This document shows positions 36,420-52,846 of a stretch of DNA of 64,000 bases, one piece after another. Origin of the DNA: Thermoanaerobaculia bacterium. GTDB lineage: Bacteria; Acidobacteriota; Thermoanaerobaculia; Multivoradales; SZUA-115. How positions within the stretch are numbered: position 1 is the stretch's first letter; each line of letters opens with the position of its first letter. The stretch covers positions 14,715 through 78,714 of the forward strand of contig JBIOXV010000172.1 of assembly GCA_044869805.1 (NCBI GenBank), given 5' to 3'. The notes under the pieces are model-generated. The model was not told the DNA's origin and did not search any database. It worked only from the letters and a program-made list of their open reading frames with translations. The position numbers and the translations under genes were made by a program.

Positions 36420-38057
36420 ATGAGCTCAGTCCCGAACGGAGCCCGCCTCGCTGTGGCCCTCGCGCTCGTCGGAGCGCTGCCGGCCGTCCCCGCCCTCGCG
36501 GCGTCGCCCGACCATCCCGAGGTCAGCTTCGCCGTGCGGCACGACGTCTCACCGCCGCTCGCCCAGCAGCCGATCCGCCGCCCGCGGGCCGGCCAGCCCG
36601 ATCGGCAGATCCCCCTGCGCGTGCCGCTGGACTTGGCGGCCCGGTATCACCCCACCCCGCCCGCCGCGGACCCGCTGCTCGCGGTGAGCGAGACCTTCGC
36701 GGTCGCCACACCCTCTCCGATCCTCACTTTCGAGGGCCTGTCGGACGACGACAACGCCGCCGTCACCGGCGGCCGGATCGTGCCGCCGGACACCCAGGGC
36801 GACGTGGGCCTCACCCAGTACCTCCAGGCGATCAACCTGATCCTCGCCGTCTACAACAAGGCGACCGGGGCCCGCACCTTCGGCCCGGTGACGGTCGCCT
36901 CGCTGTGGGCCGGCTTCGGGGGCGAATGCGAAACCAACAACGACGGCGATCCCATCGTGCTGTACGACGACGCGGCCGACCGTTGGCTGGTGAGCCAGTT
37001 CGCGATCGCCGCCGACGGCCACCAGTGCATCGCCATCTCCACCACCAACAACCCCGCCGGCTCCTATTTCCGCTACGACTTCGTGGTCAGCCCCGACGCC
37101 TTCAACGACTATCCCAAGCTCGGCGTCTGGCCGGACGGCTACTACATGAGCGCCAACGAGTTCGAGACCAACTTCACCGGCGCCATCGCGGTGGCCTTCG
37201 AGCGCAGCAGGATGCTGCTCGGCCAGCCCGCTCAGATGGTGAAGTTCGGGCCTCTCGCCTGTGGCAGCGAGTGCTTCTTTTCCCTCCAGCCCTCTCACTT
37301 CGAGGGCGGCACGGCGCCGCCGGCCGGCGCGCCCAACACCTTCGTGATGGCCTTCGACGACGAAACCTGGGGAACCGGCTCCAACCCGGACGGCTACCGG
37401 ATCTGGGACTTCACCGTCAACTGGACGAGCCCGGGCAGCTCTAGCTTCATCGTCCGTCCACAGGTCAACGCTCCCGAGTTCGACGCCAACCTGTGCAACT
37501 TCTCGCGGAACTGCATCCGCCAGCCCTCGCCAGGCGAGCGCCTGGACCCGCTGGGTCAGTTCACTATGTTCCGGGCTCAGTACCGAAACTTCGGCACCAG
37601 CGAGCGGATCGTCCTCAACCACACGGTGGACGTGGGCAGCAACCGCGCCGGGGTGCGCTGGACCGAGCTGCGCGACAACGGCAGCGGCTGGGTGCTGCAC
37701 CAGACCGGGACCGTCGCACCCGGCTCCGATTCACGCTGGGTGGGCTCGATCGCCATGGACGGTGACGGCAACATCGCGCTCGGCTACAGCGTCTCGAGCC
37801 AGACCGTCAGGCCCTCGATCCGCTACGCCACGCGCTCGGCGGGAGACCCCTTGGGCACCATGGGCGCGGAGGTGACGCTGCAGGCCGGGGCGGGCGTACA
37901 GCGCCAGTCCTTCAACCGCTGGGGCGACTACTCGACGATGAGCGTCGACCCGGCGGACGACTGCACCTTCTGGTACACGCAGGAGTACTACGCCAACAAC
38001 GGCAGCTTCGACTTCAAGACGCGGATCGGCTCGTTCAAGGTGCCGGGCTGTAGCTGA
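36420..38057 (+). CDS. Secreted hypothetical protein, possibly beta-propeller/Asp-box-like
   Basis: A strong Shine-Dalgarno (AAGGAGG) sits 8 nt upstream and a signal peptide is present. The 545-aa ORF has native codon usage. Asp-box-like segments are visible (SIAMDGDGN; WGDYSTMS). I recognised no confident family. Confidence 0.55.
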   Translation: MSSVPNGARLAVALALVGALPAVPALAASPDHPEVSFAVRHDVSPPLAQQPIRRPRAGQPDRQIPLRVPLDLAARYHPTPPAADPLLAVSETFAVATPSPILTFEGLSDDDNAAVTGGRIVPPDTQGDVGLTQYLQAINLILAVYNKATGARTFGPVTVASLWAGFGGECETNNDGDPIVLYDDAADRWLVSQFAIAADGHQCIAISTTNNPAGSYFRYDFVVSPDAFNDYPKLGVWPDGYYMSANEFETNFTGAIAVAFERSRMLLGQPAQMVKFGPLACGSECFFSLQPSHFEGGTAPPAGAPNTFVMAFDDETWGTGSNPDGYRIWDFTVNWTSPGSSSFIVRPQVNAPEFDANLCNFSRNCIRQPSPGERLDPLGQFTMFRAQYRNFGTSERIVLNHTVDVGSNRAGVRWTELRDNGSGWVLHQTGTVAPGSDSRWVGSIAMDGDGNIALGYSVSSQTVRPSIRYATRSAGDPLGTMGAEVTLQAGAGVQRQSFNRWGDYSTMSVDPADDCTFWYTQEYYANNGSFDFKTRIGSFKVPGCS

Positions 38058-39471
38058 GCCCGGCCGATTCCAGCTTCGCCGCCTCCTCCCGCACCACCTG
38101 GTCCGCGGTCAGGCTGGTGCGGGAACTCTTGATGACCGAGAGCTGGTCCAGTAGCCAGGGCGCCGGATCGGCGCCCGTGGCGCGGGCCGTCCTGGCGACG
38201 GCCGCGGCCGCGGCCTTGAGGCAGTTCCTGGGCTCGATGCGATCGAGCTCGTCCCAGAACCAGCCGCAGGAAGAGAACATGCGGTGCCTGAGGCGCTGCG
38301 CCTCGAGGAGATCGCCCAGGCGCGTGACCTCGATGCGCTTGAGCGCGCGCTTCGCAAAGGCGGCCGCCAGCTTGGGCAAGGTCCGCCGGCCGAGTGCCAA
38401 GTCGATCGCGGCCAGCAACAGGCCGTGCGGGTCGTCCACCAGCTCGCCGGCGGCCTGCTGGTAGGCGCGATCGAGATCGACCGCCAAGGCGTTGAGCGCG
38501 GCGCGCAGCGGCGCCTTCCAGTGCGCCTGCGGGGTGCAGTGGCAGAGGTCGCTCCAGCGCGCCACGCCATGGTGACAGCTCCAGGAGCTGGGCTCGACCA
38601 CCTCCATCGACTGGCGCGGCGGGTGCGCGTCGAGGAAGCGGGCGAGGTTGGTGACCTCGAAGCCAGCACGCGACGCGGAGCTCCTCAGCAGGCGGCGCAG
38701 GAAGAGCTGGCGGTCCTTCTGATGGTGGCCGTAGAGCTCGCCGTCGGTGGCGATGAGCAGCAGCCGGTCCTCGCCCTCGGGCTCGAGCCGGGCGCCCAGG
38801 GGCTTGAGCTGCTCGCGGGCGAAGCGGTCGGCGTTGGTGGTGGCGCTGGGGTCGAAGGAGATGCGGCCCGAGAGGCTGCGCACGAAGAAGAAGGCGGCGA
38901 GGCGCCGGCCCTGGGGAAGCTCCACCCAGTAGGGCCGCGTGGGGTCGAGGGTCTGGGTCTTCGCCTGCCAGGGGGCGAGGACCGTGAATTCGATCCCTTG
39001 CTCGGCCGCCACCGCCAGCGTCTCGCGGTCGGCCGCCGTCTCCGGCAGCCACAGGCCGCGGGGCTTCCGACCGAAGCGCCGCTCGAAGTCGGCAACTCCC
39101 CAGGCGATCTCGAGCTCCTTCTCGGCCCGGGTGGCGAGCGGCAGGATGGTGTGGTGGTAGCTCTGGGCGAGCGCTCCGCCGGTGCCCGAGCGGCCGGCTC
39201 CAGATCGCCGGGCGCTCGCCTTGTCGGCGGCGACGATCTTCTTGTGCACGGCGGGGGCCGCGCGCGCCATCCAGGCGAGCAGAGTGGGGCCGAAGTCGAA
39301 GGACAGCAGCTCGTAGTTGCCGGCCTCGGCGTTCGGCCGGTAGCACTCGGCGGTGATCTTCTCGTTGAAGTTGGGATAGGGATCGGCGCCGGGCTCTTCC
39401 GGGATCTCGCCGCTCGCCGGGTCGTCGCGCGGAGGTTGGTAGAAGTGGCCGTGGACGGCGAGGAAGGTCAC
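38035..39471 (-). CDS. Glycoside hydrolase family 57-like protein with a DUF3536 C-terminal region
   Basis: The N-terminus (V)TFLAVHGHFYQPPRDDPASGEI...NFNEKITAECYRPNAEA is characteristic of GH57/DUF3536 proteins. A GTG start at 39469-39471 is inferred. The remaining 673 aa of the 1151-aa track ORF upstream are spurious. Confidence 0.8.
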   Translation of the reverse strand: MTFLAVHGHFYQPPRDDPASGEIPEEPGADPYPNFNEKITAECYRPNAEAGNYELLSFDFGPTLLAWMARAAPAVHKKIVAADKASARRSGAGRSGTGGALAQSYHHTILPLATRAEKELEIAWGVADFERRFGRKPRGLWLPETAADRETLAVAAEQGIEFTVLAPWQAKTQTLDPTRPYWVELPQGRRLAAFFFVRSLSGRISFDPSATTNADRFAREQLKPLGARLEPEGEDRLLLIATDGELYGHHQKDRQLFLRRLLRSSASRAGFEVTNLARFLDAHPPRQSMEVVEPSSWSCHHGVARWSDLCHCTPQAHWKAPLRAALNALAVDLDRAYQQAAGELVDDPHGLLLAAIDLALGRRTLPKLAAAFAKRALKRIEVTRLGDLLEAQRLRHRMFSSCGWFWDELDRIEPRNCLKAAAAAVARTARATGADPAPWLLDQLSVIKSSRTSLTADQVVREEAAKLESAGLSYSPAP

Positions 39472-40688
39472 GCCGCCCGTACCTTGACTCGCTCCCCCAC
39501 CAGCTCGAGCAGGCGCTTGAGCTCGTCGTAATCCGGGTAGCGCAGCCGCACCCAGGCGTTGGCCATGTAGCCCGCCTCCACCGGCTGGGTACGCGAGCCC
39601 ACCGGTGGAAAGTGATAGTCGATGATCCACTCCGCGAGCTCGTGCTCCATCTCCTCGACGCCCTCGTAGGCGACGATCCGCCCGTCGCGGTCCGGCCGCA
39701 GGTTGACGATGCCGGCCGAGAAGCGCCGGCTGGGCACCTGGGTGGTGTGGCCGTGGACGATCGCCGCCGCCCACTCGCGGTAGACGTCCATCTCGTTGGC
39801 GGCGCAGTAGAGGTCCCAGGCGCCCACCCCCGGCGGCCGGCAGCCGATCTCCGAGAACTTGAGGCCCTTGTTGCCGAAGAACCACTCCATGTGGGTGGCC
39901 GAGGTGCCGATCGAGAGCGCCGCGATCACCTGCGTCCCCAGCCGCTTGACCTCGTCGTACCCTGAAGAGTCGATGCGGTTGGTGGCGATGAACATCGGCG
40001 AGACGTGGCGCTCGCGCATCGCGGTCAGCACCCGCGGGTAGTAGTGGGTGATGAACTCGTGGCCTACCTCGCCGCCGGCGGTGATGGTGTCGTAGAAGCC
40101 CTCGTGCCCGTCGATGAACTCCTCGACGGCGACCGAGGCGCCGCGCTCGAAGCCCTGCTCGGCAATCGCCGCCTCGAGCTCGCGCGCGTCGTCGGCGCGC
40201 GTGGTGCCGGCGGCGCCGGCGCCGCTCCTCGGCTTCAAGATCACGGGGAAGCCGACGCGCGCCGCGAAGTCGCGCACCTCCGCGGCCGAGGAAGCCGCCG
40301 CCGACTGCGCGCAGGGGATGCCCTGCTCGCGCAGGAACTCCTTCATCGCCGGCTTGTCGCGGCAGAGGTAGGTGGTCTGGACCGAGGTGCCGGGGATGCC
40401 GCAGGCCTCGCGCACATGCGCCGCGGTCATCACGTGCGCCTCGATGGTGGCTTCGAGGCGATCCACCCAGCCGCGCCGCTGCACGTTGCGCACCGCCTCG
40501 AGCAGGGACTCCTCGTGTACCACCGAGGAGACCTCCTCGTAGTCGTGCAGCATTCGCCTGAGATCGGACGGCAGGGCCGAGGCCGGCACCTCGCCGATCG
40601 CCGTCACCTTGGCCCCCACCTCGGCCAGGCCGCGCACGAACTTGCGCTGGTTGAAGGGGAAGGCGGGCTCCACGAAGACCACGTGCAT
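39468..40688 (-). CDS. ATP-grasp domain ligase (paralog 1 of 3)
   Basis: MHVVFVEPAFPF is the N-terminus. A central ATP-grasp fold (VILKPRSGAGAAG, HMEWFF, EIGCRPPG) is present. Its stop overlaps the GH57 GTG start (GTGA). Confidence 0.75.
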   Translation of the reverse strand: MHVVFVEPAFPFNQRKFVRGLAEVGAKVTAIGEVPASALPSDLRRMLHDYEEVSSVVHEESLLEAVRNVQRRGWVDRLEATIEAHVMTAAHVREACGIPGTSVQTTYLCRDKPAMKEFLREQGIPCAQSAAASSAAEVRDFAARVGFPVILKPRSGAGAAGTTRADDARELEAAIAEQGFERGASVAVEEFIDGHEGFYDTITAGGEVGHEFITHYYPRVLTAMRERHVSPMFIATNRIDSSGYDEVKRLGTQVIAALSIGTSATHMEWFFGNKGLKFSEIGCRPPGVGAWDLYCAANEMDVYREWAAAIVHGHTTQVPSRRFSAGIVNLRPDRDGRIVAYEGVEEMEHELAEWIIDYHFPPVGSRTQPVEAGYMANAWVRLRYPDYDELKRLLELVGERVKVRAA

Positions 40689-40731
40689 GCGGGTTCTCCA
40701 AAGCCGGGAACGCGGGGATAATACACCGCCT

Positions 40732-41682
40732 ATGGCGAGGGCTATCGTTCTTCTGGGGCCGCAGCGGCTGCAGCCGACGCTGGTATCGGTGTGCGACGAG
40801 ATGGGCCTTCGGGGTCCCATCGCGGCGGTCACCGCCGGCTGGCAGGAGCGCGAGGCCGAGGTCGAGGAGATGCGGGCGCATCTCAATCGCCCGGTGGTCA
40901 ACCTGATGCTCCACGAGCGGGGCGAGAAGCTCTTCGCCGCCGATCCCAGGCTGGCCGAGAAGTACCGCGAGCGGCAGGACCGCCTGCGCGACCTGCAAGC
41001 GCTCTACCGCCTGCGCCTGGCCCACGCCCTGGCCGCGGCGCGCGAGGTGATGAGCCGCGCCGCCGCTTCGCTTCCCGGGGGCTCGGAGCTGTTCGAGCCC
41101 GAGGTCGAGGCGGCGATCGACGCCGTGCGCGACCTGGACGCGCACCACCTGGCGCGCGTGCGCGAGGTGCACGCGCGCTTCGAGGCCGAGGCGAGGCCCC
41201 TCGAGCGGCCCGCCCTGCTGCGCCACCGGCACGAGCTCGGCCGCCTGCTCGCCGGCTCCACGGCGCTCGCCATCGCCGGCGGCCACGTCGCCGTGCTGCT
41301 CAACCGGCTGCGCCTCTTCGGGGTGCTGGAGCTCGCCGGCGCGCGGCCGATCATCGCCTGGTCGGCCGGCGCCATGGTGCTCGGCGACCGCGTCGTCCTG
41401 TTCCACGACAACCCGCCGCAGGGCGCCGGCAACGCCGAGCTGCTGGAGGCCGGGCTGGGGCTGTTCGCCGACCTGCTGCCCCTGCCGCACGCCGGCAAGC
41501 GCCTAGAGCTCGACGACACCCTGCGCGTCTCGCTCTTCGCCCGTCGCTTCGCCCCCGCCGCCTGCGTGGCCTTGGATCCCCTGGCCCGCGTCTCGCGCCG
41601 CGAGGCCGGCGGCTGGCGGCCGGGCCCCGGCACCCAGGTACTGACCGCCAAGGGAGCCCTGCGGAAGGCCGCTTCGCTATGA
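40732..41682 (+). CDS. Peptidase S51-like protein (peptidase E/cyanophycinase family; class I glutamine-amidotransferase-like fold)
   Basis: RPIIAWSAGAMVLGDRVVLFHD resembles the GxSAG nucleophile region of S51 peptidases, and the protein is about 316 aa. The family call comes from motif recognition only. Confidence 0.5.
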   Translation: MARAIVLLGPQRLQPTLVSVCDEMGLRGPIAAVTAGWQEREAEVEEMRAHLNRPVVNLMLHERGEKLFAADPRLAEKYRERQDRLRDLQALYRLRLAHALAAAREVMSRAAASLPGGSELFEPEVEAAIDAVRDLDAHHLARVREVHARFEAEARPLERPALLRHRHELGRLLAGSTALAIAGGHVAVLLNRLRLFGVLELAGARPIIAWSAGAMVLGDRVVLFHDNPPQGAGNAELLEAGLGLFADLLPLPHAGKRLELDDTLRVSLFARRFAPAACVALDPLARVSRREAGGWRPGPGTQVLTAKGALRKAASL

Positions 41683-42815
41683 GCCTGGCGATCCACGAGC
41701 TGCAGCGCAAGAAGCGCATCACCACCAAGGCGGTCGACGACTTCCTGGCCAAGAACGCCTTCCCGCTGGTCGAGGGGCCGAGCGTGACCTTCGTCTATCG
41801 CGGCAAGGCGGACGCCGTGCTGCTCCAGCACTTCATCTACGGGCTGCCCACCTCGCGGCCCTTCAAGCGCATCGACGGCGCCGACCTCTGGTACCTGGTG
41901 ATGGAGCTCCCCGCCAACTCGCGGGTGGAGTACAAGCTGAACGTGGTGAACGGCAAGGATCACCACTGGATCCGCGATCCTTTAAACCCGGTCACCGCCC
42001 GCGACCCGTTCGGCGCCAACTCGGTGGTTCACTCCGCGGGGCACGTGCAGCCGGATTGGACGCTCTTCGACCCGGAGGCCCGCCCCGGCACGATCGAGGA
42101 GCGCGAGATCAAGAGCGAGGCCTTCAAGCGTACCCACGGCTACCGGCTCTACCTGCCGGCACGCTTCAGGACTACCCGGCGCTACCCGCTCCTCGTCCTC
42201 CACGACGGCGACGACTACCTGCGCTTCGCCTCCCTCCAGACGGTGCTCGACAACCTGATCCACCGCATGGAGGTGGCGCCGATCATCGTCGCGCTGATCT
42301 CTTCGCGCGAGCGCCTGACCGAGTACGCGGACGACCCGCGCCACGCGCGCTTCGTGGCCGAGGAGCTGCTGCCCCAGCTCGACCGTACCCTGCCCCTGGA
42401 GCCCTCCCCGGCGGCCCGCGGCCTCGCCGGAGCGAGCTTCGGCGCCGTGGCGTCGCTGGCCACCGCCTGGCGCTACTCCGGGCGCTTCGGCAGGCTGCTC
42501 CTGCAGTCGGGCTCCTTCGCCTTCACCGACATCGGCCACCACAAGCGGGGCCCGGCCTTCGACCCGGTGGTCAAGTTCGTCAACGCCTTCCGCGATCAGC
42601 CGGGGCGGCCGACGGAGAAGGTCTTCGTCTCCTGCGGCACCTACGAGTCGCTGATCTACGAGAACCGCTCGCTCGTCCCGCTGCTGCAGGCCACCGGCAT
42701 GGAGGTCCGCTACGTGGAGGCGCGCGACGGCCACAACTGGGAGAACTGGCGCGACCGCCTGCGCGAGGGCCTCTCGTGGCTGTTCCCCGGGCCACTGTGG
42801 ATGGTGTATGAGTAG
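41679..42815 (+). CDS. Esterase-family alpha/beta hydrolase (PF00756-like) with an N-terminal Ig-like/CBM48-like domain
   Basis: The N-terminal beta domain (VTFVYRGKADAVLLQHF...WYLVMELPANSRVEYKLNV) resembles the enterochelin-esterase N-domain and CBM48. The catalytic region LAGASFGA is present. Its ATG overlaps the preceding stop (ATGA). Confidence 0.7.
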   Translation: MSLAIHELQRKKRITTKAVDDFLAKNAFPLVEGPSVTFVYRGKADAVLLQHFIYGLPTSRPFKRIDGADLWYLVMELPANSRVEYKLNVVNGKDHHWIRDPLNPVTARDPFGANSVVHSAGHVQPDWTLFDPEARPGTIEEREIKSEAFKRTHGYRLYLPARFRTTRRYPLLVLHDGDDYLRFASLQTVLDNLIHRMEVAPIIVALISSRERLTEYADDPRHARFVAEELLPQLDRTLPLEPSPAARGLAGASFGAVASLATAWRYSGRFGRLLLQSGSFAFTDIGHHKRGPAFDPVVKFVNAFRDQPGRPTEKVFVSCGTYESLIYENRSLVPLLQATGMEVRYVEARDGHNWENWRDRLREGLSWLFPGPLWMVYE

Positions 42816-42840
42816 ACCACCTACCGACGAAAGGTAAACC

Positions 42841-44112
42841 ATGGCCACCGTCACCAAGAAGATCGGGCTCTCCCTGGGCGCAGACCTCTGCTGGCCCCTG
42901 TGCTACGAGGAGATCGTCAAGCAGCTCGAGCTGGCGGTGCCGATCGACGGGCACACGGTCGGCGTCGAAGTCGAACGGGTCACTATCGAGCCCTTCAACC
43001 TGCGCCAGCCGGTGAAGTACGACTTGGTGCTCGATCGGCTCACCCACTGGTACCACACCAGCCGCGAGTGGATCAAAAAAGCGGTGCTGATGAACGACCT
43101 CTACGTGCTCAACAACCCGTGGGCCATCCAGTCTATGGAGAAGCACACCACCTACTGCGCCATGATGCGCCTCGGCTTCCCGATCCCCGAGACCTGGATG
43201 CTGCCGCCCAAGGAGTACGAGCCCTCCGACGACCTGCAGGTCACGCTCGAGCGCTACGCGCGGCTCTTCAGCCTGTCCTCGATCGGCGACGAGGTCGGAT
43301 ACCCGATGTTCATGAAGCCGTTCGACGGCGGCGCCTGGAAGGGGGTGCAGCGCATCGAGGACGCCGCCGCCCTGCGCGCGGCCTACGAAGGCAGCGGCAA
43401 GAACATCATGCACCTGCAGAAGGCGGTGGAGGGCTTCGACCTCTTCGTGCGCGGCATCGGCATCGGGCCGCAGGTGCGCTGCGTGCGTTACAACCCGTCG
43501 GCGCCGCTCCATGCGCGCTACGAGGTGGCCTTCAACTTCCTGACCGGCGAGGAGGCCTCCTACCTGCGCGACCAGACGCTGACCATCAACACCTTCTTCG
43601 GCTGGGACTTCAACTCCTGCGAGTCGCTGCGCCAGGGCGGGGTCTTCTACCCTATCGACTTCGCCAACGCCTGCCCCGACTCGCAGGTGACCTCGCTGCA
43701 CTTCCATTTCCCTTGGCTGGTCAAGGCGCAGGTGCGCTGGAGCCTGTTCTGCGCCCTGACCGATCGCAAGATGCGCAAGAACCTGGACTGGGAGCCGTAC
43801 TACCTGATCGCCGACCGCGACGACCTCTCCTTCCGAGAGAAGCTCGCCGCCTACGCCCAGATCGCCGACCAGCGCCTGGACACCGAGCGCTTCCAGGACT
43901 TCTGCAACCGCAATTTGGCGCACCTCGACGAGGTGTCGTGGGAGTTCTTCGGCACCGGCACCGCCAAGGAGGCAGTGCGCAGCAAGGTGGCCGCCCTCTT
44001 CCCGGAGCACGAGATCGAAGAGTTCACCGAGCACTTCTGGGGCCTGATCCAGTTCTGGCGCAAGACCGAGTCCGACCGCATCGGCACGGGGCGAGGGGAG
44101 GAGACGGCGTAG
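42841..44112 (+). CDS. Distinct ATP-grasp-like ligase (RimK/GshB-like fold), family unassigned
   Basis: GYPMFMKPFDGGAWKGV is a K-P ATP-binding loop, and a C-terminal YPIDFANACP segment is Mg-site-like. The composition is unusually rich in aromatic residues and Lys and poor in Ala and Arg for this genome. Confidence 0.55.
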   Translation: MATVTKKIGLSLGADLCWPLCYEEIVKQLELAVPIDGHTVGVEVERVTIEPFNLRQPVKYDLVLDRLTHWYHTSREWIKKAVLMNDLYVLNNPWAIQSMEKHTTYCAMMRLGFPIPETWMLPPKEYEPSDDLQVTLERYARLFSLSSIGDEVGYPMFMKPFDGGAWKGVQRIEDAAALRAAYEGSGKNIMHLQKAVEGFDLFVRGIGIGPQVRCVRYNPSAPLHARYEVAFNFLTGEEASYLRDQTLTINTFFGWDFNSCESLRQGGVFYPIDFANACPDSQVTSLHFHFPWLVKAQVRWSLFCALTDRKMRKNLDWEPYYLIADRDDLSFREKLAAYAQIADQRLDTERFQDFCNRNLAHLDEVSWEFFGTGTAKEAVRSKVAALFPEHEIEEFTEHFWGLIQFWRKTESDRIGTGRGEETA

Positions 44113-44167
44113 GTCGACCTTTCCAAGCTCGCCCGCCTTCGCACTCTGCGACTGGAGACACTTGCCT

Positions 44168-47167
44168 ATGGCCTCTCGCCGCCTGATCTGCCTCGCCTTC
44201 GCTTTCATGGCCGCCGCGGCTCGCGGTGACGACGACCTCGACGCGCGCCTCGCCGAGATCGCCGCCTGCCAGCTCGACACCGCCAAGGCGGTCACCGTCC
44301 GCGGCCTCGCGCTCAACACCGGCATGGCCACCCTCAAGGTGGACACCGGCACCTTCTTCCCCGCCAGCCCGGTGGCCGGCCGGGTGACGGAAGCGGTCTT
44401 CCTGGGCAAGGCGCGGCTGGTGCTCGATCCCCCCGACGAGATCGAGCGCGCGCAGCTCGAGATCTTCACCGGCCGGACGCGCCTCGAGGTGGAGATCTCC
44501 GAGGCCGCTTTCGTGCTCGCCAGTGACCGGGCCGCGGAAGCGGTGTTCAAGCGCTCGCCGGCCGCGGTCGAGCCGGCCCTCGCCAGCCGGGCGACGGAGC
44601 TCTTCGCCACCTGGAAGGCGAGCCCGGAGCGCAAGCAGCTCGACGTCGACGGCGCCATCCTCGCCGACAGCCTCGGCGACGCCTTCGCCCAGGGCTACTT
44701 CGCCGGCTGGTTCCAGAGCGCGGAGCTGGGCAAGTTCCTCTACCTGGTCGAGCCGAGCTCCGTCGAGCAGGTGACGCTCGGGCAGTTCGTGCCCATCGAC
44801 CTCACCAAGAAAGAGAAACGCAAGGCGGCCAAGCTGATCCACCGCGAGCAGCGGCGGGGGCGGCTGATCGGCATCGAGGTCGAGGACCTGGGGCAGTGGG
44901 ATACCTGGGTCTCGGCCTCGCTCCGCGGCGCCGCGGCCGGGCCCACGCCCGGCGATCCCGGCTTCGAGCCCGAGCGCTACGTGGTCGATCTCTCGCTCGC
45001 CGACCGCGACCTCGCGGTCAGCGGCCGGGCGCAGATCCAGCTCCGGGCCACGCTCGGCATCACCCGCATCGTGCACCTCGCCGTCCACTCCGAGCTCGAA
45101 GTGACGAAGGTGCTGGGCGAAGGCGGGGAGGCGCTGCCCTTCCGCCAGACCGGCGGCGAGGTGATGGTCGTGCTGCCGCGGGCGCCGGCGGCGGGAGAGA
45201 CCGCCGTCGTCGAGGCCCACTTCGACGGGGAGCTGCTGGAGAAGGTCGAGGGCGGCGTCTTCCTCCTCGCCGAGACCGTGAACTGGCACCCCCACGCCGG
45301 CGACGTCGACCGTGCCACCTACGACGTGACCTTCCACTGGCCGGGGCGCCTCGAGCTGCTGGCCGGCGGCAAGCGGGTGGGCGGCGGCGCGGAGAAGAGC
45401 GGCCGGCAATGGGAGCGGCGGTCGATCGAGCTGCCGGCCGCGGGGCTCGGCTTCGAGGTCGGCAAGTTCCATCTCACGACCCGCCAGGCCGGGCACGTGG
45501 CGATCCGGCTGGGGATGATGCCTTTCGCCGGCGAGGGCCGCAAAGGAATCGAGGAACGCATCCTCGATGCCGCCAGCCGGTCCCTCACCTACTTCGAGGA
45601 GGCCTTCGGTCCCTACCCGCTCGACGAGCTGATCCTAGTGCTGACCCCGCGCCTCTACTCGCAGGCCCTGCTCGGTTTCGTCACCCTGTCGGCGGTGATG
45701 ATGGCCGAAGACAGCCTCTTGGTCTGGCTGATCGGCCTCGAGGACCCGCGCACGGTGATCGCCCACGAGGTCGCGCACCAGTGGTGGGGCCACCAGGTGG
45801 GCTGGCTGGGCTACCGCGACCAGTGGCTGTCCGAGGCGATGGCCAACTACGCGGCGGTGCTCTTCGCGCGGAACGAGCTCGGCGGCGAGCTGCGCTACGC
45901 CCGCGGCCCCACCTCCGACTGGCAGGCGGCGCTGCTCGAGGAGACCGCGGACGGCCGGCCCATCGAGTCGCTGGGGCCGCTGGTGCTCGGGGCGCGGCTC
46001 TCCTCGAGCCGCGGCGGCGACGCCTATAGCTCGATCGTCTACCGCAAGGGGGCGGTAGTGCTCGACATGCTCGCCCGCCGCTTCGGCGAGCAGGCCTTCC
46101 TCGGCATGCTCAAGAAGACCGCCGAGGTCGCCGCCCACCGCGCCATCTCGACCGAGATCTTCCTCGACGCGCTGGAGCGGCAGTCCGGGGTCGAGCTCGA
46201 CGGCTTCGCCGGCCAGTTCATCTACGGCACCGGCCTGCCGGAGGTGTACTACGACTACACCTTCGCCCAGGCGGAGGGCGGCAAGTGGAAGGTGACCGGC
46301 ACCGCCCGCCAGAGCGCCCCTTACCGCTTCCGGTACCGCGTGGTGGAGAGCGCCGGCGGCTTCGACGTGGGGCGCGAGCGGATCGACCTGGCGCGGGTCG
46401 CCGACTCGGCGCTGATCGTGCCGGTGCAGATCGCGCTGTACGACCCGACGAAGCAGGAGGAGAAGAAGGCGAAGCGCAGCGAGGCGCGCGCGATCGGCAA
46501 CAGTCTGCTCTCGGGCCACATCCTGCTCCGGGGCGAGTCGACGCCCCTCTCCTTCGAGCTCGACCACGAGCCCAAGGAGGTCTGGCTCGACCGCCGGGAG
46601 GAGGTGTTCGGCCGCTTCTTCAACCAGCGTCGGCATCCGAAGCGCATGCTCCTGTACCAGGCGATCGACCTCGCGGCCGCCGGCCGCCGCGAGGAGGCGC
46701 TGGCGCTCGCCGCCCAGGCCCTCGCCGCCGAGACCTTCTCCGGCCCCCGTTACGAGGACTCTCCCGGGCCCGAGGACCTCGAGGCCGAGGCGCAGTCGCT
46801 CGACGGCCAGGTGCACCTCCTGCTCGGCCGCCTCCACCTCGACGCCGGCCGCGACGCCGAGGCGCGCTCGGCGCTGGGCGCGGCGAGAGACCTCCTCGAG
46901 CCCGGCAAGCACCCGTGGCGGAAGGGGGAGATCGACCTGCTGGACGCCCGCCTGGCGCTGCACGAGAAGGACTTCGAGCGCGCCTACCGCCTGCTGCGCA
47001 AGGGGGTGGTCAAGCAGGGCACCATCGAGGGCGCCGAGGGCTCGCTGCTGCTGGCGATCGCGGCCCGCGCCACCGGCCACACCGAGGAAGCGAAGCAGGC
47101 GATCGAGGACGCCAAGCAAGGAGGCGCCGAGGTGGGGGCGCTCACCGCGGCGGCCAAGCCCCGCTGA
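44168..47167 (+). CDS. Secreted M1-family zinc metallopeptidase (aminopeptidase-N-like) with a C-terminal TPR region
   Basis: A signal peptide is followed by the M1 signatures IAHEVAHQWWGHQVGW and downstream LSEAMANY. The C-terminal roughly 250 aa carry TPR-like repeats. Confidence 0.8.
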   Translation: MASRRLICLAFAFMAAAARGDDDLDARLAEIAACQLDTAKAVTVRGLALNTGMATLKVDTGTFFPASPVAGRVTEAVFLGKARLVLDPPDEIERAQLEIFTGRTRLEVEISEAAFVLASDRAAEAVFKRSPAAVEPALASRATELFATWKASPERKQLDVDGAILADSLGDAFAQGYFAGWFQSAELGKFLYLVEPSSVEQVTLGQFVPIDLTKKEKRKAAKLIHREQRRGRLIGIEVEDLGQWDTWVSASLRGAAAGPTPGDPGFEPERYVVDLSLADRDLAVSGRAQIQLRATLGITRIVHLAVHSELEVTKVLGEGGEALPFRQTGGEVMVVLPRAPAAGETAVVEAHFDGELLEKVEGGVFLLAETVNWHPHAGDVDRATYDVTFHWPGRLELLAGGKRVGGGAEKSGRQWERRSIELPAAGLGFEVGKFHLTTRQAGHVAIRLGMMPFAGEGRKGIEERILDAASRSLTYFEEAFGPYPLDELILVLTPRLYSQALLGFVTLSAVMMAEDSLLVWLIGLEDPRTVIAHEVAHQWWGHQVGWLGYRDQWLSEAMANYAAVLFARNELGGELRYARGPTSDWQAALLEETADGRPIESLGPLVLGARLSSSRGGDAYSSIVYRKGAVVLDMLARRFGEQAFLGMLKKTAEVAAHRAISTEIFLDALERQSGVELDGFAGQFIYGTGLPEVYYDYTFAQAEGGKWKVTGTARQSAPYRFRYRVVESAGGFDVGRERIDLARVADSALIVPVQIALYDPTKQEEKKAKRSEARAIGNSLLSGHILLRGESTPLSFELDHEPKEVWLDRREEVFGRFFNQRRHPKRMLLYQAIDLAAAGRREEALALAAQALAAETFSGPRYEDSPGPEDLEAEAQSLDGQVHLLLGRLHLDAGRDAEARSALGAARDLLEPGKHPWRKGEIDLLDARLALHEKDFERAYRLLRKGVVKQGTIEGAEGSLLLAIAARATGHTEEAKQAIEDAKQGGAEVGALTAAAKPR

Positions 47168-47177
47168 CCGCCGGCCG

Positions 47178-47489: not shown

Positions 47490-47528
47490 GCCGGGATTAC
47501 CGCCCGGCGTAACGCGCCCGGGGCGAGA

Positions 47529-49043
47529 TCAGAAGTGCCCCGCCAGGAGCGCCTCGTACAGTGCCACGTAGCGCTCGATCTGCGACTCCCAGGAGAAGTC
47601 CCGGCTCATGCCGGCGAGCATCAATCGCCGCCAGGCCTCGCGATCCTGGTAGAGGTCGAGCGCCTGGTTCACGGCCCACGCCAGGCCCTCGGGCGTGAAG
47701 TGCTCGAATACGAAGCCGGTGCCACTGCCGTCCCCGGGGTCGAAGGGCTCCACCGTGTCGGCGAGGCCGCCGGTCTTGCGCACCACGGGCGGCGTGCCGT
47801 AGCGCTGGCTGTACATCTGGTTCAAGCCGCAGGGCTCGTAGAGCGAGGGCATGAGGAAGATATCGGCGCCCGCCTCGATCAGATGGGCCAGCGGCTCGCT
47901 GTAACCGCGGTAGAAGACCACGCGGTCGGGGAAGCCGTGCTGCAGCCCGGCGAAGAACTCCTCGTACTTGCGCTCGCCGTTGCCGAGCACCACCAGGCGG
48001 GCGTTGCGTCGCGCCAGCAGGCCCGGCAGGACCTCGAAGAACAGGTCGAAGCCCTTCTGCGCGGTGAGGCGCGACACCACGCCCAAGAGTGGCACCCGCT
48101 CCTCGGCGGCCGAGCCGGGAGCGGCGAGCCCCAGGGAGGCCAGCCCCAGAGAAGCTAGCAAATCGGCCTTGTTGGCGGCCTTGCCGGAGAGGTCGGCCGC
48201 CGAGTAGGGGTGGGGGATGTGGGGGTCGTTCGCCGGGTCCCACTCCTCGGCGTCGATGCCGTTGACGATCCCCACCAGGTGGTCGCCGCGCGCCCGCAGC
48301 ACGCCCTGGAGCCCCATGCCGTAGCGGTCGGTCTGGATCTCCAGGGCGTGGGTGCGCGACACGGTGGTGATGACCCCGGCATAGAGCAGGCCGGTCTTCA
48401 AGAAGTTGATCCGCCCGGCCGCGAGGTCGTCCTGGTAGAGGTAGGAGGCGACCCCCGCGAGCCCCAGCTCGGGCAGCAGGCCGCTGCCGAACACTCCCTG
48501 GTAGCCCACGTTGTGCAGCGTGAGCACGGTCTTGGTGCCGGCGAACAGGCGGTCCCAGGCGTAGACGGTGCGCAGGTAGAGGGGCATCAAGGCGGTGTGC
48601 CAGTCGTGCGCGTGCACGATGTCCGGTGCCCAGCCCATGCGCTGGCAGCACTCGAGCGCCGCCCGCGACAGGAAGGCGAAGCGCAGCGCCTCGTCCGCGT
48701 CCTGCGTGTAGTAGCCCTCGCGGTCGTAGAGCGCCGGGCAGTGGATGAAGTAGAGCGGCGGCCCGCCGCCGTGGGTGCCGACGCCCGGCAGCGGCGCCGT
48801 GTAGGCGGAGAAGGAGAGGTGGCGGTCGCCCACCGAGATCGGCACGTCGCGCAGGAAGGCGACCGGGAAAAACGAGTGCTGCGAGCGATCGATCTTCGAG
48901 TACAGCGGCAGGAAGGCGCGCACGTCGTGCCCGGCGCGGTCGAGGTAGCGGGCGAGCGAGGCGGCGACATCGCCCAGGCCGCCGGTCTTGGCGAACGGGG
49001 TGAGCTCGGAGCTCGCCTGGCAGATGCGCAGCGGCCGGTCCAC
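47529..49043 (-). CDS. glgA: Glycogen (starch) synthase, ADP-glucose type (GT5)
   Basis: SSELTPFAKTGGLGDV and C-terminal GT-B motifs (LMPSLYEPCGLNQMY) identify it. A GTG start at 49041-49043 is inferred. The upstream 668 aa of the 1172-aa track ORF are a spurious extension. Confidence 0.85.
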   Translation of the reverse strand: MDRPLRICQASSELTPFAKTGGLGDVAASLARYLDRAGHDVRAFLPLYSKIDRSQHSFFPVAFLRDVPISVGDRHLSFSAYTAPLPGVGTHGGGPPLYFIHCPALYDREGYYTQDADEALRFAFLSRAALECCQRMGWAPDIVHAHDWHTALMPLYLRTVYAWDRLFAGTKTVLTLHNVGYQGVFGSGLLPELGLAGVASYLYQDDLAAGRINFLKTGLLYAGVITTVSRTHALEIQTDRYGMGLQGVLRARGDHLVGIVNGIDAEEWDPANDPHIPHPYSAADLSGKAANKADLLASLGLASLGLAAPGSAAEERVPLLGVVSRLTAQKGFDLFFEVLPGLLARRNARLVVLGNGERKYEEFFAGLQHGFPDRVVFYRGYSEPLAHLIEAGADIFLMPSLYEPCGLNQMYSQRYGTPPVVRKTGGLADTVEPFDPGDGSGTGFVFEHFTPEGLAWAVNQALDLYQDREAWRRLMLAGMSRDFSWESQIERYVALYEALLAGHF

Positions 49044-50308
49044 TAGACCTCCGTGCCGTCCGGCACCACCGCCCCGGCCGCCACCACGATGATGCCGTCG
49101 CGGATGCACCAGTTGTCGCCGTCGGCGTGGGTCACGCCGCCCGCGTTGACCAGCTTGACGCCGTTGCCGATGCGCACGTCGCGGTCGAGGATGGCGTGCT
49201 TGATCACGCAGTCGCGGCCGATACCGAGCGGGATGTTGCTGCCCGCCGCCTCGTCGGGCTCGAAGAAGTTGGCGCCCATCACCACGCTGTCCTCGACCAC
49301 CGAGCCGGAGCGGATCACCGAGCGCACCCCGAAGATCGAGCGCTGGATCTCGGCGCCGGTGATGATCGAGCCGTCGCACAGCACCGAGTGGTAGACCCGG
49401 CACTCGTTCACCTTCACCCCGGGCAGGAAGCGCGGGTGGGTGAAGATCGGGTAGTCGGGGCTGTAGAGGTTGAGCGGCGGCACCGGCACCGCGAGCTCCA
49501 GGTTCGAGCTGTGGAAGTTGCCGATGGTGCCGATGTCGCGCCAGTAGCCGTCGTAGCCGAAGGCGTAGATCTTCCGCTCGTGGATCGCCTTGGGGATGAT
49601 CTCTTTGCCGAAGTCGTGGTCGTCGGTGCCCACCAGCAGGTCGCGCAGCAGGCCGGGGCGGAAGACGTAGATGCCCATGCTGGCGAGGAGCGCGTCCTCC
49701 TCGGTTTCGAAGCCGAGCTTCTTCAGCGTGGCGGCGTCGGTAATCAGGCGGTCGAGGACCTCCTTCTCGGTCGGCTTCTCCACGAACTCGATGATGCGGC
49801 CGGCGGAGTTGACGCGCATGATCCCCAGGCCTTTGGCCTGTGACCGGGGCACCGCCTTGACCGCCACCGTCATGTCCGCCTTCTTCTGCCGATGGGTGTC
49901 GACGAAGTTCCTCATCTCCATCAGGTAGAGCTGGTCGCCGGACAGCACCAGCACCTCGGAAGGCTGCAGCAGGAGCAGCCGGTCCAGGTTCTGGCGCACG
50001 GCGTCGGCCGTGCCCTGGTACCAGTCGCGGCGCTCGAGGCCCTGCTCGGCGGCCAGGATGTTGACGAAGCCGCGCGAGAAGACGTCGAAGCGATAGGTCT
50101 GCGCGATGTGCTGGTGCAGGCTCGCCGAGTTGAACTGGGTCAAGACGAAGATGCGGGTGATGCCGGCGTGCAGGGAGTTCGAGATCGGCACGTCGATCAG
50201 CCGAAACTTGCCCCCCACCGGCACCGCCGGCTTGGCCCGGCTCTTGGTGAGCGGCCACAGGCGCGCTCCCTGCCCACCCCCCAGGATCGCGGTGACGACG
50301 TTCCTCAT
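49043..50308 (-). CDS. glgC: Glucose-1-phosphate adenylyltransferase
   Basis: ILGGGQGARLWPLT, KPAVPVGGKFRLIDVPISN and the left-handed beta-helix C-terminus match GlgC. The TAG stop overlaps the glgA start by 1 nt. Confidence 0.9.
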   Translation of the reverse strand: MRNVVTAILGGGQGARLWPLTKSRAKPAVPVGGKFRLIDVPISNSLHAGITRIFVLTQFNSASLHQHIAQTYRFDVFSRGFVNILAAEQGLERRDWYQGTADAVRQNLDRLLLLQPSEVLVLSGDQLYLMEMRNFVDTHRQKKADMTVAVKAVPRSQAKGLGIMRVNSAGRIIEFVEKPTEKEVLDRLITDAATLKKLGFETEEDALLASMGIYVFRPGLLRDLLVGTDDHDFGKEIIPKAIHERKIYAFGYDGYWRDIGTIGNFHSSNLELAVPVPPLNLYSPDYPIFTHPRFLPGVKVNECRVYHSVLCDGSIITGAEIQRSIFGVRSVIRSGSVVEDSVVMGANFFEPDEAAGSNIPLGIGRDCVIKHAILDRDVRIGNGVKLVNAGGVTHADGDNWCIRDGIIVVAAGAVVPDGTEV

Positions 50309-50397
50309 CGGCGCCCCTCTCTTGAAGCCAAGCCTCTGAGGTGGCAGATCTTACTCGCACTCGCCCGCCCGGCCCAAGGCCGCTATACTCCCCGCCC

Positions 50398-51618
50398 GTG
50401 CCGCACGTCGTCTTCGTAGCGCCGTTCCTGATGCCGGCCACGGCGCGCTTCGCGCAGGCCACGGCGAGCCTGCCGGGGGTCAAGGTCGGGCTCATCACCC
50501 AGGACCCGGCGGCCAAGATCCCGCCTTCGCTCGCCGCCTCGATCGCCGCCCACCGGCGGGTGGAGAACGCTTTCGACCCGGTGCGCTTGGCCGATGCGGC
50601 CCGCGACCTCGCGCGCTCGATCGGCGGCCTCGACCGGCTGATGGGGGCCCTGGAGCAGCTCCAGGTGCCGCTCGCCCAGGCGCGCGAGATCCTGGGGGTC
50701 GAGGGCATGCGGGTAGAGGCGGCGAAGAACTTCCGCGACAAGGCGCGCATGAAGACCGTGCTGCGGGAGGCCGGCCTGCCCTGCGCCCGCCACCGGCTGG
50801 CGGCTTCCGCCGAGGAGGCGCGCGACTTCGCGCGCGAGGTCGGCCTGCCGCTGGTGGTCAAGCCCCCGGACGGCGCGGGCGCCAAGGCCACCTTCAGGGT
50901 GGGCACGCCCGAGGCGCTGGAGGAGGCCTTGAAGGTCAACGCGCCGGCGCCCGGCCGCCCGGTGCTGCTCGAGGAGTTCGTCACCGGCGACGAGTACTCT
51001 TTCGAGACCGTTTCGATCGCCGGCCGGCCGGTGTGGTACTCCTCCACCCGCTACCTGCCGACGCCGCTCGAGGCGATGCACAACCCATGGATTCAGTGGT
51101 GCGTGCTGCTGCCTCGGGAGCGCGAGGACCCGCGCTTCGACGACGTCAAGGAAGTGGCTTTCAAGGGGCTCGCGGCGCTGGGCATGGGCACCGGCCTCTC
51201 GCACATGGAGTGGTTTCGGCGCCGCGACGGCTCGCTCGCCATCTCCGAGGTCGCCGCCCGCCCTCCGGGCGCGCAGATCACCACCCTGGTTTCGGTGGCG
51301 CACGAGTTCGACTTCCTCGCCGCCTGGGCACGCCTCATGGTGTTCAGCGAGTTCCATCCGCCGCCGCGCAAGTGGGCCTCCGGCGCCGCCTTCTTCCGCG
51401 GCATGGGCGGGAGCCGCGTCAAGGCCGTGCACGGCCTCGACCAGGCGCAGAAGGAGCTGGGGCCGCTGGTGGTCGAGGCCAAGCTGCCCAAGCCCGGCGC
51501 CCCCAAGTCCGACAGCTACGAGGGCGACGGCTACGCCGTGCTGCGCCACGAGAGCACCGAGACGGTACGGAAGGCGCTGATGCGGCTGGTGGCGCTGGTG
51601 CGCGTCGAATACAACTGA
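50398..51618 (+). CDS. ATP-grasp domain ligase (paralog 2 of 3)
   Basis: (V)PHVVFVAPFLMP, LVVKPPDGAGAKA, HMEWF and EVAARPPG are present. A GTG start at 50398 is chosen by alignment to its paralogs; an alternative ATG lies at 50341. Confidence 0.7.
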   Translation: MPHVVFVAPFLMPATARFAQATASLPGVKVGLITQDPAAKIPPSLAASIAAHRRVENAFDPVRLADAARDLARSIGGLDRLMGALEQLQVPLAQAREILGVEGMRVEAAKNFRDKARMKTVLREAGLPCARHRLAASAEEARDFAREVGLPLVVKPPDGAGAKATFRVGTPEALEEALKVNAPAPGRPVLLEEFVTGDEYSFETVSIAGRPVWYSSTRYLPTPLEAMHNPWIQWCVLLPREREDPRFDDVKEVAFKGLAALGMGTGLSHMEWFRRRDGSLAISEVAARPPGAQITTLVSVAHEFDFLAAWARLMVFSEFHPPPRKWASGAAFFRGMGGSRVKAVHGLDQAQKELGPLVVEAKLPKPGAPKSDSYEGDGYAVLRHESTETVRKALMRLVALVRVEYN

Positions 51619-51628
51619 GATCCCGTCG

Positions 51629-52846
51629 ATGAACGTGGTGATGATCGCTCCGGCCTACCCGTGGGAGATGACCCTCTTCACCCGCGGGCTGGCGCGGGTG
51701 GGCGCCAAGGTGCTCGGCGTGGGGGACACGCCGGCCGCGGGGCTGTCGCCGATGGTGAAGGAGAGCCTCGCCGCCTACCTGCACGTGCCCTCGCTGTGGG
51801 ACGAGGAGGCAGTGATCGAGGCCGTGCGCCGGCACCCGGCGGCGCGCTCGCTCGACCTCGTGGAATGCCTGTGGGAGCCGGGCATGATCCTCGCCGCCCG
51901 GCTGCGCGAGCGGCTGGGCCTGCCCGGCATGACGGTCGCCGAAACCGTTCCCTTCCGCGACAAGGGGCGAATGAAACAGGTGCTCGACGCCGCCGGCATC
52001 CGCACTCCGCGTCACTTCCGCGCCGCGTCGACCCGCGAGGTGCGCGCCGCGGCCGAACGCATCGGCTTCCCGCTGATCGTCAAGCCGATCGCCGGCGCCG
52101 GCTCCAAGGACACCCATCGGGTCGACGACGACGCGGAGCTCGAGCAGGTCATCGCCAAGGTCCGGCACGTCGAGGAGGTGAGCGTCGAGGAGTACATCGA
52201 GGGCGAGGAGCACACTTTCGACACCATCTGTGCCGACGGCGAGATCCGCTATTTCAACCTCGCCTGGTACCGGCCGCGGCCGCTGCTGCAGCGCACCGTC
52301 GAGTGGATCAGCCCGATGACCGTCACCCTGCGGGACGTGTTCCGCGACGACCTCGCACCGGGCCGAGAGATGGGCCAGGCGGTGCTCGAGGCCCTGGGAT
52401 TCAAGACCGGCTTCACCCACATGGAGTGGTTCCTGAAGCCTGACGGCGAGGCGGTGTTCGGCGAGATCGGCGCCCGCCCGCCCGGCGCGCGCTCGACCGA
52501 GCTGATGAACTACGGCTGCGACATCGACGTCTTCACCGGCTGGGCCGAGGCGGTGTGCCACCGGCGATTCAGCCAGAAGGTGGTGCGCCGCTACAACAGC
52601 GCCGTGATCTTCAAGCGCGCCCAGGGCCAGGGCCGCATCCAGCGCATCGAGGGCCTGGAGCGCCTGCTCGGCCGCTTCGGCGAGGCGATCGTCTCCGTCG
52701 ATCTCCTGCCGATCGGCTCGCCGCGCCGCAACTGGCTCCAGACCCTGCTCTCCGACGGCCACGTCATCCTCCGCCACCCGCACCTACCGACCTGCATCGA
52801 GATGGCGGACACGGTGGCCGAGGAGCTGCAGCTCTACGCTGCCTAG
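51629..52846 (+). CDS. ATP-grasp domain ligase (paralog 3 of 3)
   Basis: MNVVMIAPAYPW, LIVKPIAGAGSKD, HMEWF and EIGARPPG are present. It follows paralog 2 after a 10-bp gap. Confidence 0.75.
   Translation: MNVVMIAPAYPWEMTLFTRGLARVGAKVLGVGDTPAAGLSPMVKESLAAYLHVPSLWDEEAVIEAVRRHPAARSLDLVECLWEPGMILAARLRERLGLPGMTVAETVPFRDKGRMKQVLDAAGIRTPRHFRAASTREVRAAAERIGFPLIVKPIAGAGSKDTHRVDDDAELEQVIAKVRHVEEVSVEEYIEGEEHTFDTICADGEIRYFNLAWYRPRPLLQRTVEWISPMTVTLRDVFRDDLAPGREMGQAVLEALGFKTGFTHMEWFLKPDGEAVFGEIGARPPGARSTELMNYGCDIDVFTGWAEAVCHRRFSQKVVRRYNSAVIFKRAQGQGRIQRIEGLERLLGRFGEAIVSVDLLPIGSPRRNWLQTLLSDGHVILRHPHLPTCIEMADTVAEELQLYAA

What the first reader, a model, noticed from the sequence alone, without database searches (positions are those of the whole stretch)
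38035..52846. Glycogen genes interleaved with four ATP-grasp ligases, two peptidases and a CBM-like esterase: a candidate uncharacterised ligase/peptidase module coupled to glucan storage
Within 15 kb the glucan-storage genes glgC and glgA and a GH57/DUF3536 hydrolase are not arranged as a plain glg operon (malQ lies 8 kb further on). They are interleaved with three closely paralogous ATP-grasp ligases (39468-40688, 50398-51618, 51629-52846) and a fourth ATP-grasp-like enzyme of a different family (42841-44112). The same stretch holds an S51-type peptidase (peptidase E/cyanophycinase-like, 40732-41682), an esterase whose N-terminal domain resembles the Ig-like/CBM48 glycogen-binding module (41679-42815), and a secreted M1 aminopeptidase with a TPR tail (44168-47167). 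ATP-grasp enzymes form amide bonds on carboxylates (cyanophycin synthetase, RimK, L-amino-acid ligases). S51 enzymes cleave Asp-X dipeptides and cyanophycin. Their co-occurrence with glgA/glgC suggests either a cyanophycin-like peptide or poly-amino-acid reserve built by stand-alone ligases and co-regulated with glycogen, or an amino-acyl/peptidyl modification of the glucan itself. The CBM48-like esterase and the GH57 gene translationally coupled to an ATP-grasp gene favour the second option. I know of no characterised system with this composition.
Basis: partly seen in the sequence, partly recalled or inferred. Interest (0 to 1): 0.85.

Follow-up and report, generated by a model that had tools for sequence, protein, structure and literature searches.

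The report
Peptide-ligase module tied to glycogen synthase
Next to its only glycogen-making genes, this soil bacterium (an Acidobacteriota) carries a set of enzymes that join amino acids using ATP and another set that cut such bonds. Unrelated bacteria carry the same set, and it keeps moving between genomes together with the glycogen synthase gene, which points to an undescribed pathway that links storage of sugar polymers with the making of peptides.

Summary
The window (an Acidobacteriota, class Thermoanaerobaculia, genome with about 71% GC) holds glgC, glgA (the genome's only copy), a GH57 glycoside hydrolase that is translationally coupled to an ATP-grasp gene, three ATP-grasp ligases of the L-amino-acid-ligase (LAL) type, a fourth, divergent ATP-grasp enzyme, a divergent S51 serine peptidase, and a Fes/CE1-type esterase whose N-terminal domain has a CBM48-like fold. 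The three ligases are not close paralogs: they share only 31-36% identity. In 80 genomic loci from Acidobacteriota, Planctomycetota, Gammaproteobacteria, Dormibacteraeota and others, the same ligase/hydrolase set is conserved. B and C are always in tandem and are fused in some genomes; C is fused to the S51 peptidase in another. glgA often sits beside the module and is sometimes translationally coupled to ligase A. In a glgA tree, the module-linked glgAs of Planctomycetota and Gammaproteobacteria group with the Acidobacterial ones, so glgA has moved between genomes together with the module. Most likely this is an undescribed system that makes and recycles short peptides and is expressed together with glycogen. 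Whether the peptides end up covalently attached to the glucan is unresolved.

The parts
50398..51618 (+). ATP-grasp ligase B (LAL-type), first of the conserved tandem pair
   Evidence: Pfam ATP-grasp, LAL_C2 weak; PDB 4wd3/3vot LAL; orthologs in 57/80 loci; fused to C in P0005/P0006
51629..52846 (+). ATP-grasp ligase C (LAL-type), query family present in all 80 loci
   Evidence: Pfam ATP-grasp_4, ATPgrasp_N; PDB 3vot E 1.7e-20; fused to S51 in P0011
50309..50397 (.). 89-bp divergent intergenic region between glgC and ligase B (shared promoter region inferred)
   Evidence: gene coordinates; glgA/glgC divergent from B-C conserved in many loci
49043..50308 (-). glgC, ADP-glucose pyrophosphorylase (only copy in genome)
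   Evidence: NCBIfam PRK02862 537 bits; own-genome search
47529..49046 (-). glgA, ADP-glucose glycogen synthase (only copy in genome); co-transferred with module across phyla
   Evidence: TIGR02095 511.6 bits; single copy; tree
39468..40688 (-). ATP-grasp ligase A (LAL-type); in other genomes translationally coupled downstream of glgA
   Evidence: Pfam ATP-grasp; 31 of 80 loci; ATGA overlap with glgA in L071
38035..39471 (-). GH57+DUF3536 glycoside hydrolase, GTGA-coupled to ligase A (lineage-specific; candidate branching enzyme)
   Evidence: Pfam; GTGA overlap; PDB weak 3n8t GH57 GBE; genome lacks GH13 GlgB
40732..41682 (+). divergent S51 serine peptidase (peptidase E/cyanophycinase family)
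   Evidence: Pfam below GA for window member; 13/14 homologs hit S51; invariant WSAGA; 16-23 of 80 loci
41679..42815 (+). Fes/CE1-type esterase with N-terminal CBM48-like (E-set) domain, ATGA-coupled to S51
   Evidence: Pfam Esterase PF00756; PDB Fes 2b20; N-domain fold CBM48-CE1 Z 12
42841..44112 (+). divergent ATP-grasp enzyme D
   Evidence: no Pfam family; AF2 + Foldseek ATP-grasp fold; 22 of 80 loci

Best explanation
This is a conserved, horizontally mobile system that makes and breaks peptide bonds, and it is genetically hard-wired to glycogen synthesis. Three L-amino-acid-ligase-type ATP-grasp enzymes (A, B, C) and a divergent ATP-grasp enzyme (D) activate amino-acid carboxylates with ATP (acyl-phosphate) and join them into short peptides, most likely in successive steps. 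B and C work as a pair. The S51 serine peptidase (Asp-X dipeptidase/cyanophycinase family) and the Fes/CE1-type esterase hydrolyse the products or their ester-linked forms, so the product can be turned over. Each of these cut or join reactions is inferred from family membership and has not been tested here. My most likely reading is that the peptide (or poly-amide) product is made together with glycogen as a companion reserve or glycogen-linked metabolite. The module is kept in operons with, or translationally coupled to, glgA, and glgA travels with it between phyla. The exact product is unknown.
For: Family assignments: LAL ligases, divergent ATP-grasp D, S51, Fes/CE1 esterase. Module conserved in 80 loci across phyla. 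The ligase B-C tandem is fused in P0005/P0006. Ligase C is fused to S51, with the esterase next (P0011 and L136). glgA is adjacent in 34 of 80 loci and ATGA-coupled to ligase A in Gammaproteobacteria. The module-linked glgAs of Planctomycetota and Gammaproteobacteria group with Acidobacterial glgAs, while native gamma glgAs lie outside. Those genomes carry a single glgA.
Against: No product, substrate or expression data. The module also occurs in Dormibacteraeota that lack GlgA, and Nannocystis carries only a C-like ligase, so GlgA is not strictly required. The S51 assignment is weak for the window protein. Nothing shows a polymer rather than dipeptides. The esterase has no demonstrated role in this picture.
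Confidence: 0.35

Rival explanations
1. Glucan acylation: the ATP-grasp enzymes ester-link amino acids or short peptides to hydroxyls of the α-glucan made by GlgA. ATP-grasp enzymes can form esters, as VanA (D-Ala-D-Lac) and MdnC (microviridin ω-esters) do. The CBM48-domain CE1/Fes-type esterase removes them (an 'eraser'), and S51 trims the peptides.
For: The esterase belongs to carbohydrate-esterase/Fes families, and its N-domain has the CBM48 glucan-binding fold. glgA is co-transferred and translationally coupled. In the window, ligase A is also coupled to a GH57 glucan enzyme.
Against: The ligases' closest relatives are dipeptide-forming LALs. The module exists in GlgA-less Dormibacteraeota, though they have GlgB and so probably an α-glucan. 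No glucan-binding domain is found in the ligases. No precedent is known to me.
Confidence: 0.2
2. A specialised-metabolite cluster: a dipeptide or tripeptide antibiotic-like compound, as in the LAL-based bacilysin, rhizocticin or tabtoxin pathways, that sits beside glgA by an old insertion and moved with it as a hitchhiker.
For: LAL ligases are the hallmark of such pathways. Peptidases could act as activating or processing enzymes.
Against: No conserved transporter, tailoring or warhead-forming genes. The set is very widespread. glgA is translationally coupled to ligase A, which argues for co-expression rather than mere hitchhiking.
Confidence: 0.2
3. Graspetide (RiPP) maturation: ATP-grasp enzymes crosslink a ribosomal precursor peptide.
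For: Foldseek hits of D include MdnC and a RiPP ATP-grasp ligase.
Against: No conserved small precursor ORF in module intergenic regions. The B and C ligases are LAL-like, not graspetide-ligase-like.
Confidence: 0.05
4. Post-translational protein modification (RimK-like addition of amino acids to a protein C-terminus, with the peptidase as remover).
For: RimK family weak hits for D. A ligase plus peptidase pair resembles the RimK/RimB logic.
Against: The closest relatives are free-amino-acid LALs, and no target protein is conserved.
Confidence: 0.1

Closest known systems
L-amino acid ligases (BacD/YwfE, BL00235, RizA; PDB 3vot, 4wd3, 3wo1)
   Same: ATP-grasp_4 fold with ATPgrasp_N and LAL_C2 domains; ligases A, B and C are closest to these by sequence (E 1.7e-20)
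   Different: Here three distinct LAL ortholog groups act together (B-C fusions) with a divergent fourth ATP-grasp, S51 and esterase hydrolases, and are linked to glgA. Known LALs are mostly single enzymes in antibiotic pathways.
Cyanophycin system (CphA1/CphA2 synthetases, CphB S51 cyanophycinase)
   Same: ATP-grasp ligase(s) plus an S51 peptidase; builds amide-linked amino-acid products; a storage-reserve logic co-existing with glycogen
   Different: No Mur-ligase (M) domain; ligases are LAL-like, not CphA-like (CphA hits only about 40 bits against an 850-bit cut-off); three to four separate ligases; an esterase is present.
Classical glycogen operon (glgBXCAP)
   Same: glgC-glgA coupled (ATGA) and divergent from the module
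   Different: The lineage lacks GH13 GlgB, GlgP and GlgX; a GH57 protein is coupled to a ligase; the operon is invaded by ATP-grasp genes.
CE1 feruloyl esterases with N-terminal CBM48 (PDB 6rzn, 8bbp) and enterobactin esterase Fes (2b20)
   Same: PF00756 α/β-hydrolase with an N-terminal Ig-like/CBM48-like domain
   Different: Here the esterase sits in an ATP-grasp ligase module next to glgA. The substrate is unknown.
Microviridin/graspetide ATP-grasp ligases (MdnB/MdnC)
   Same: Multiple ATP-grasp enzymes acting in one pathway; can form esters
   Different: No precursor peptide found; closest relatives are LALs, not graspetide ligases.

Membership tests
L-amino acid ligase (LAL) family | ATP-grasp domain (ATP-grasp_4/PF02222 class) with N-terminal pre-ATP-grasp domain | tested here: met
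   Pfam ATP-grasp, ATP-grasp_4, ATPgrasp_N in A, B, C
L-amino acid ligase (LAL) family | Closest solved homologs are characterised LALs | tested here: met
   3vot BL00235 E 1.7e-20, 4wd3, BacD 3wo1
L-amino acid ligase (LAL) family | LAL_C2 C-terminal domain | tested here: inconclusive
   LAL_C2 hits in A and B below cut-off (E 0.0027, 0.016)
L-amino acid ligase (LAL) family | Dipeptide synthesis from unprotected L-amino acids | not testable with these tools
   Needs enzyme assay
Cyanophycin synthetase (CphA1/CphA2) | ATP-grasp domain plus Mur-ligase-like M domain in one protein | tested here: not met
   No Mur ligase domain in any module protein; CphA models score about 40 bits against an 850 cut-off
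Peptidase S51 (peptidase E/cyanophycinase) | S51 profile match | tested here: met
   13/14 homologs, best E 3.2e-9; the window member is below GA
Peptidase S51 (peptidase E/cyanophycinase) | Conserved nucleophile Ser in GxSAG motif | tested here: met
   Invariant WSAGA in alignment A1
Peptidase S51 (peptidase E/cyanophycinase) | Similarity to a solved S51 structure | tested here: inconclusive
   Profile search of PDB found nothing
Enterochelin esterase Fes / CE1 esterase (PF00756) | PF00756 catalytic domain | tested here: met
   E 2.5e-23; PDB Fes 2b20 E 2.7e-15
CBM48 glucan-binding module | CBM48 β-sandwich fold | tested here: met
   AF2 N-domain matches CBM48-CE1 esterases Z 12, GlgB/pullulanase/AMPK CBM48 Z about 10; Fes N-domain Z 10.6
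CBM48 glucan-binding module | Glucan binding | not testable with these tools
   Binding residues and binding were not assessed
Classical glycogen operon | GH13 GlgB, GlgP, GlgX present with GlgC/GlgA | tested here: not met
   No TIGR01515, TIGR02093 or TIGR02100 hits in G000; GlgP absent in 19/20 relatives
Graspetide (RiPP ATP-grasp) cluster | Conserved precursor peptide gene | tested here: not met
   No conserved intergenic small ORF

The most novel reading that the evidence does not exclude
The module installs and removes amino-acyl or peptidyl esters on glycogen/α-glucan. ATP-grasp ligases would acylate glucan hydroxyls, and the CBM48-domain esterase would act as the eraser. The result would be a covalently modified carbohydrate reserve that stores carbon and nitrogen together.
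Probability: 0.2. Interest if true: 0.9.

Novelty: new variant of a known kind. Interest (0 to 1): 0.6.

Why it matters
ATP-grasp enzymes are known from cell-wall, cofactor and antibiotic pathways. A widespread, mobile set of them that is tied to the sole glycogen synthase, down to translational coupling and co-transfer, points to an uncharacterised branch of storage metabolism. It may be a peptide reserve co-expressed with glycogen, or a chemically modified glycogen. Either would change how carbon and nitrogen storage is pictured in soil Acidobacteriota, Planctomycetota and Gammaproteobacteria. The enzymes (LAL-type ligases, S51, CE1-like esterase) are easy to express, so the question can be tested directly.

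Tried and rejected
Cyanophycin-synthetase identity: rejected, because no Mur-ligase domain is present and the CphA scores are far below cut-off. GH57 and M1 aminopeptidase as module members: rejected, because they are not found in other loci. A conserved RiPP precursor: none found among intergenic small ORFs; most conserved small ORFs were antisense shadows of GC-rich genes. Naive longest-ORF gene calling gave merged, wrong-frame genes in this 70%-GC DNA; it was replaced by GC3-frame calling. Profile search of PDB with the S51 alignment found nothing. Literature searches for ATP-grasp together with glycogen/glgA, enterochelin esterase, alpha-glucan, cyanophycinase or peptidase E found no description of this module. 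A promoter/terminator scan gave only background-level hits. Second module copies elsewhere in G000: not found; the extra LAL paralogs there stand alone.


Full report
Organism and setting. The window lies on contig C172 of a 6.18-Mb, 94%-complete genome. Its closest relatives are Acidobacteriota, class Thermoanaerobaculia; the nearest contig is CAWDVR010000005.1, at 91% identity to ligase C. GC is about 70%, and genes were called by third-position GC in the true frame. An Acidobacteria-specific VWA protein (TIGR03436) sits at 52843-54345.

Genes in 38-53 kb. A GH57+DUF3536 protein lies at 38035-39471(-); its GTG start overlaps the TGA stop of ligase A (GTGA). Ligase A (P0001) is at 39468-40688(-); the divergent S51 peptidase at 40732-41682(+); the esterase at 41679-42815(+), ATGA-coupled to S51. 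ATP-grasp D (P0004) is at 42841-44112(+) and the M1 aminopeptidase at 44168-47167(+), with a signal-peptide-like N-terminus. glgA is at 47529-49046(-), glgC at 49043-50308(-), ligase B (P0002) at 50398-51618(+) and ligase C (P0003) at 51629-52846(+). malQ (GH77) lies at 61309-62901.

The genome's glycogen genes. glgA and glgC are the genome's only copies. The genome has no GH13 GlgB, GlgP or GlgX, and GlgP is missing in 19 of 20 relatives of its order. So the GH57 protein is the only candidate branching enzyme; that is inferred, with only a weak PDB match to the GH57 branching enzyme 3n8t.

Families. Ligases A, B and C are ATP-grasp enzymes whose closest solved relatives are L-amino acid ligases (3vot BL00235 at E 1.7e-20, 4wd3, BacD). 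They share only 31-36% identity with each other, so 'closely paralogous' is wrong. D has no Pfam family. Its AlphaFold model, built from an alignment of 16 homologs (pTM 0.74), matches ATP-grasp enzymes (Ddl, LAL, MdnC) at TM about 0.35: a divergent ATP-grasp. The window S51 protein falls below Pfam's cut-off, but 13 of 14 homologs match S51 (best E 3.2e-9), and the nucleophile motif WSAGA is invariant. The esterase is PF00756, closest in sequence to Fes (2b20). Its N-domain, predicted alone (pLDDT 81), is a CBM48/E-set fold: CBM48+CE1 feruloyl esterases score Z 12.1, Fes 10.6, and pullulanase, GlgB and AMPK CBM48 domains about 10.

Conservation. P0003 found 530 relatives in the one-genome-per-species collection; 80 loci were fetched. 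They come from Acidobacteriota (several classes), Planctomycetota, Gammaproteobacteria (including Steroidobacteraceae), Dormibacteraeota, Eisenbacteria, Myxococcota (Nannocystis) and single Actinomycetota and Saccharimonadota MAGs. Ligase C occurs in 80 loci, ligase B in tandem with it in 57, glgA in 34, ligase A in 31, the esterase in 23, D in 22, glgC in 19 and S51 in 16. Ten relatives from the same order show the same B-C pair, with glgC and glgA divergent in several.

Recurring arrangement. The typical order is [ligase A <- glgA] <-> [ligase B -> ligase C], with an S51 -> esterase -> D unit nearby. In Gammaproteobacteria loci glgA and ligase A overlap by ATGA, which is translational coupling (L071, L075, L080, L083; one search verified directly). 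In Acidobacterial and Planctomycetal loci the gap is 30-110 bp.

Fusions. Database proteins of 820-850 aa fuse ligase B (N-terminal half, 49% identity) to ligase C (P0005, P0006). A 722-aa protein fuses a full C-type ligase to S51 (P0011), and on its contig the esterase follows directly (L136). So B and C act together, and C, S51 and the esterase belong to one pathway.

Co-transfer of glgA. In the quick IQ-TREE tree of 58 glgAs, the module-linked glgAs of Planctomycetota MAGs (L031, L046, L088, L040) sit inside the Acidobacterial radiation. Those of a Gammaproteobacteria order (9 genomes) form a clade sister to that group. The native glgAs of gamma relatives without the module (L101-L103, 41-47% identity) fall outside with Nannocystis and Sulfidibacter. 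The genomes checked carry only one glgA. So glgA has been moved, and has replaced the native gene, together with the module. The MAG taxon labels are NCBI's and a careful tree was not finished; both are caveats.

Limits. Dormibacteraeota carry the whole ligase/hydrolase set without glgA, and their genomes have no GlgA but do have GH13 GlgB. Nannocystis carries only a C-like ligase. The window genome also has stand-alone LAL paralogs elsewhere. No conserved precursor peptide was found, and the literature searches found no description.

Interpretation. Shown: the families, the conservation, the fusions, the coupling and the co-transfer. Inferred: the chemistry. LAL-type ligases join free amino acids through acyl-phosphate intermediates. 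S51 enzymes cleave Asp-X dipeptides or cyanophycin-derived dipeptides. CE1/Fes esterases cleave carboxylic esters. The most economical reading is a peptide-synthesis and turnover system kept in an operon with glycogen synthesis: a companion reserve or glycogen-linked metabolite, about 0.35. A hitchhiking dipeptide-antibiotic cluster is possible but fits the coupling poorly (about 0.2). None of these is demonstrated; the decisive tests are enzyme assays with ATP and amino acids, with and without glucan, and glycogen analysis in knockouts.

Noticed in passing
genome G000 (whole); The Thermoanaerobaculia genome and 19 of 20 relatives in its order lack glycogen phosphorylase. G000 also lacks GH13 GlgB and GlgX. 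Glycogen would have to be branched by the GH57 protein and mobilised without phosphorylase, perhaps via MalQ (GH77) at 61309-62901.
   Followed up: partly
window 38035-39471 (-): The GH57+DUF3536 protein starts with a GTG that overlaps the TGA stop of ligase A (GTGA). Its N-terminus is the GH57 'VHGHFYQPP' region. It is the genome's only GH57 and a candidate branching enzyme.
   Followed up: partly
L071 8444-8447; L075, L080, L083: In Gammaproteobacterial loci glgA and ATP-grasp ligase A overlap by ATGA (translational coupling).
   Followed up: yes
P0005-P0009, P0011, L136: Natural fusions: ligase B+C (~830 aa), and ligase C + S51 peptidase (722 aa) with the esterase gene directly downstream.
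   Followed up: yes
L053, L059, L078, L084, L086, L090, L094: Dormibacteraeota carry the full ligase/hydrolase module but no glgA, and their genomes have no GlgA (TIGR02095). They have GH13 GlgB and a GlgE-like neighbour, so a GlgE-pathway α-glucan is inferred.
   Followed up: partly
G000 C5:141920-143131, C123:16509-17723, C115:4495-5700: The window genome carries three further stand-alone LAL-type ATP-grasp paralogs (58% to C, 68% and 52% to A) without other module genes.
   Followed up: partly
window 31696-32772 (-), 33384-35219 (+), 44168-47167 (+): Peptidases cluster near the module: a PF10023 aminopeptidase, an M64 IgA peptidase and a secreted-looking M1 aminopeptidase.
   Followed up: no
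window 55168-58443 (-), 57819-59878: A CHAT-domain TPR protein, then a zf-HC2 anti-sigma factor and two ECF sigma factors.
   Followed up: no
window 52843-54345 (-): An Acidobacteria-specific VWA-domain protein (TIGR03436).
   Followed up: no
L039 (contig JAHZIX010000041): A MAG labelled 'Deltaproteobacteria/Myxococcia' by NCBI is, by GTDB handle (G019), in the same order as the window's Acidobacteriota genome: a likely mislabel.
   Followed up: no
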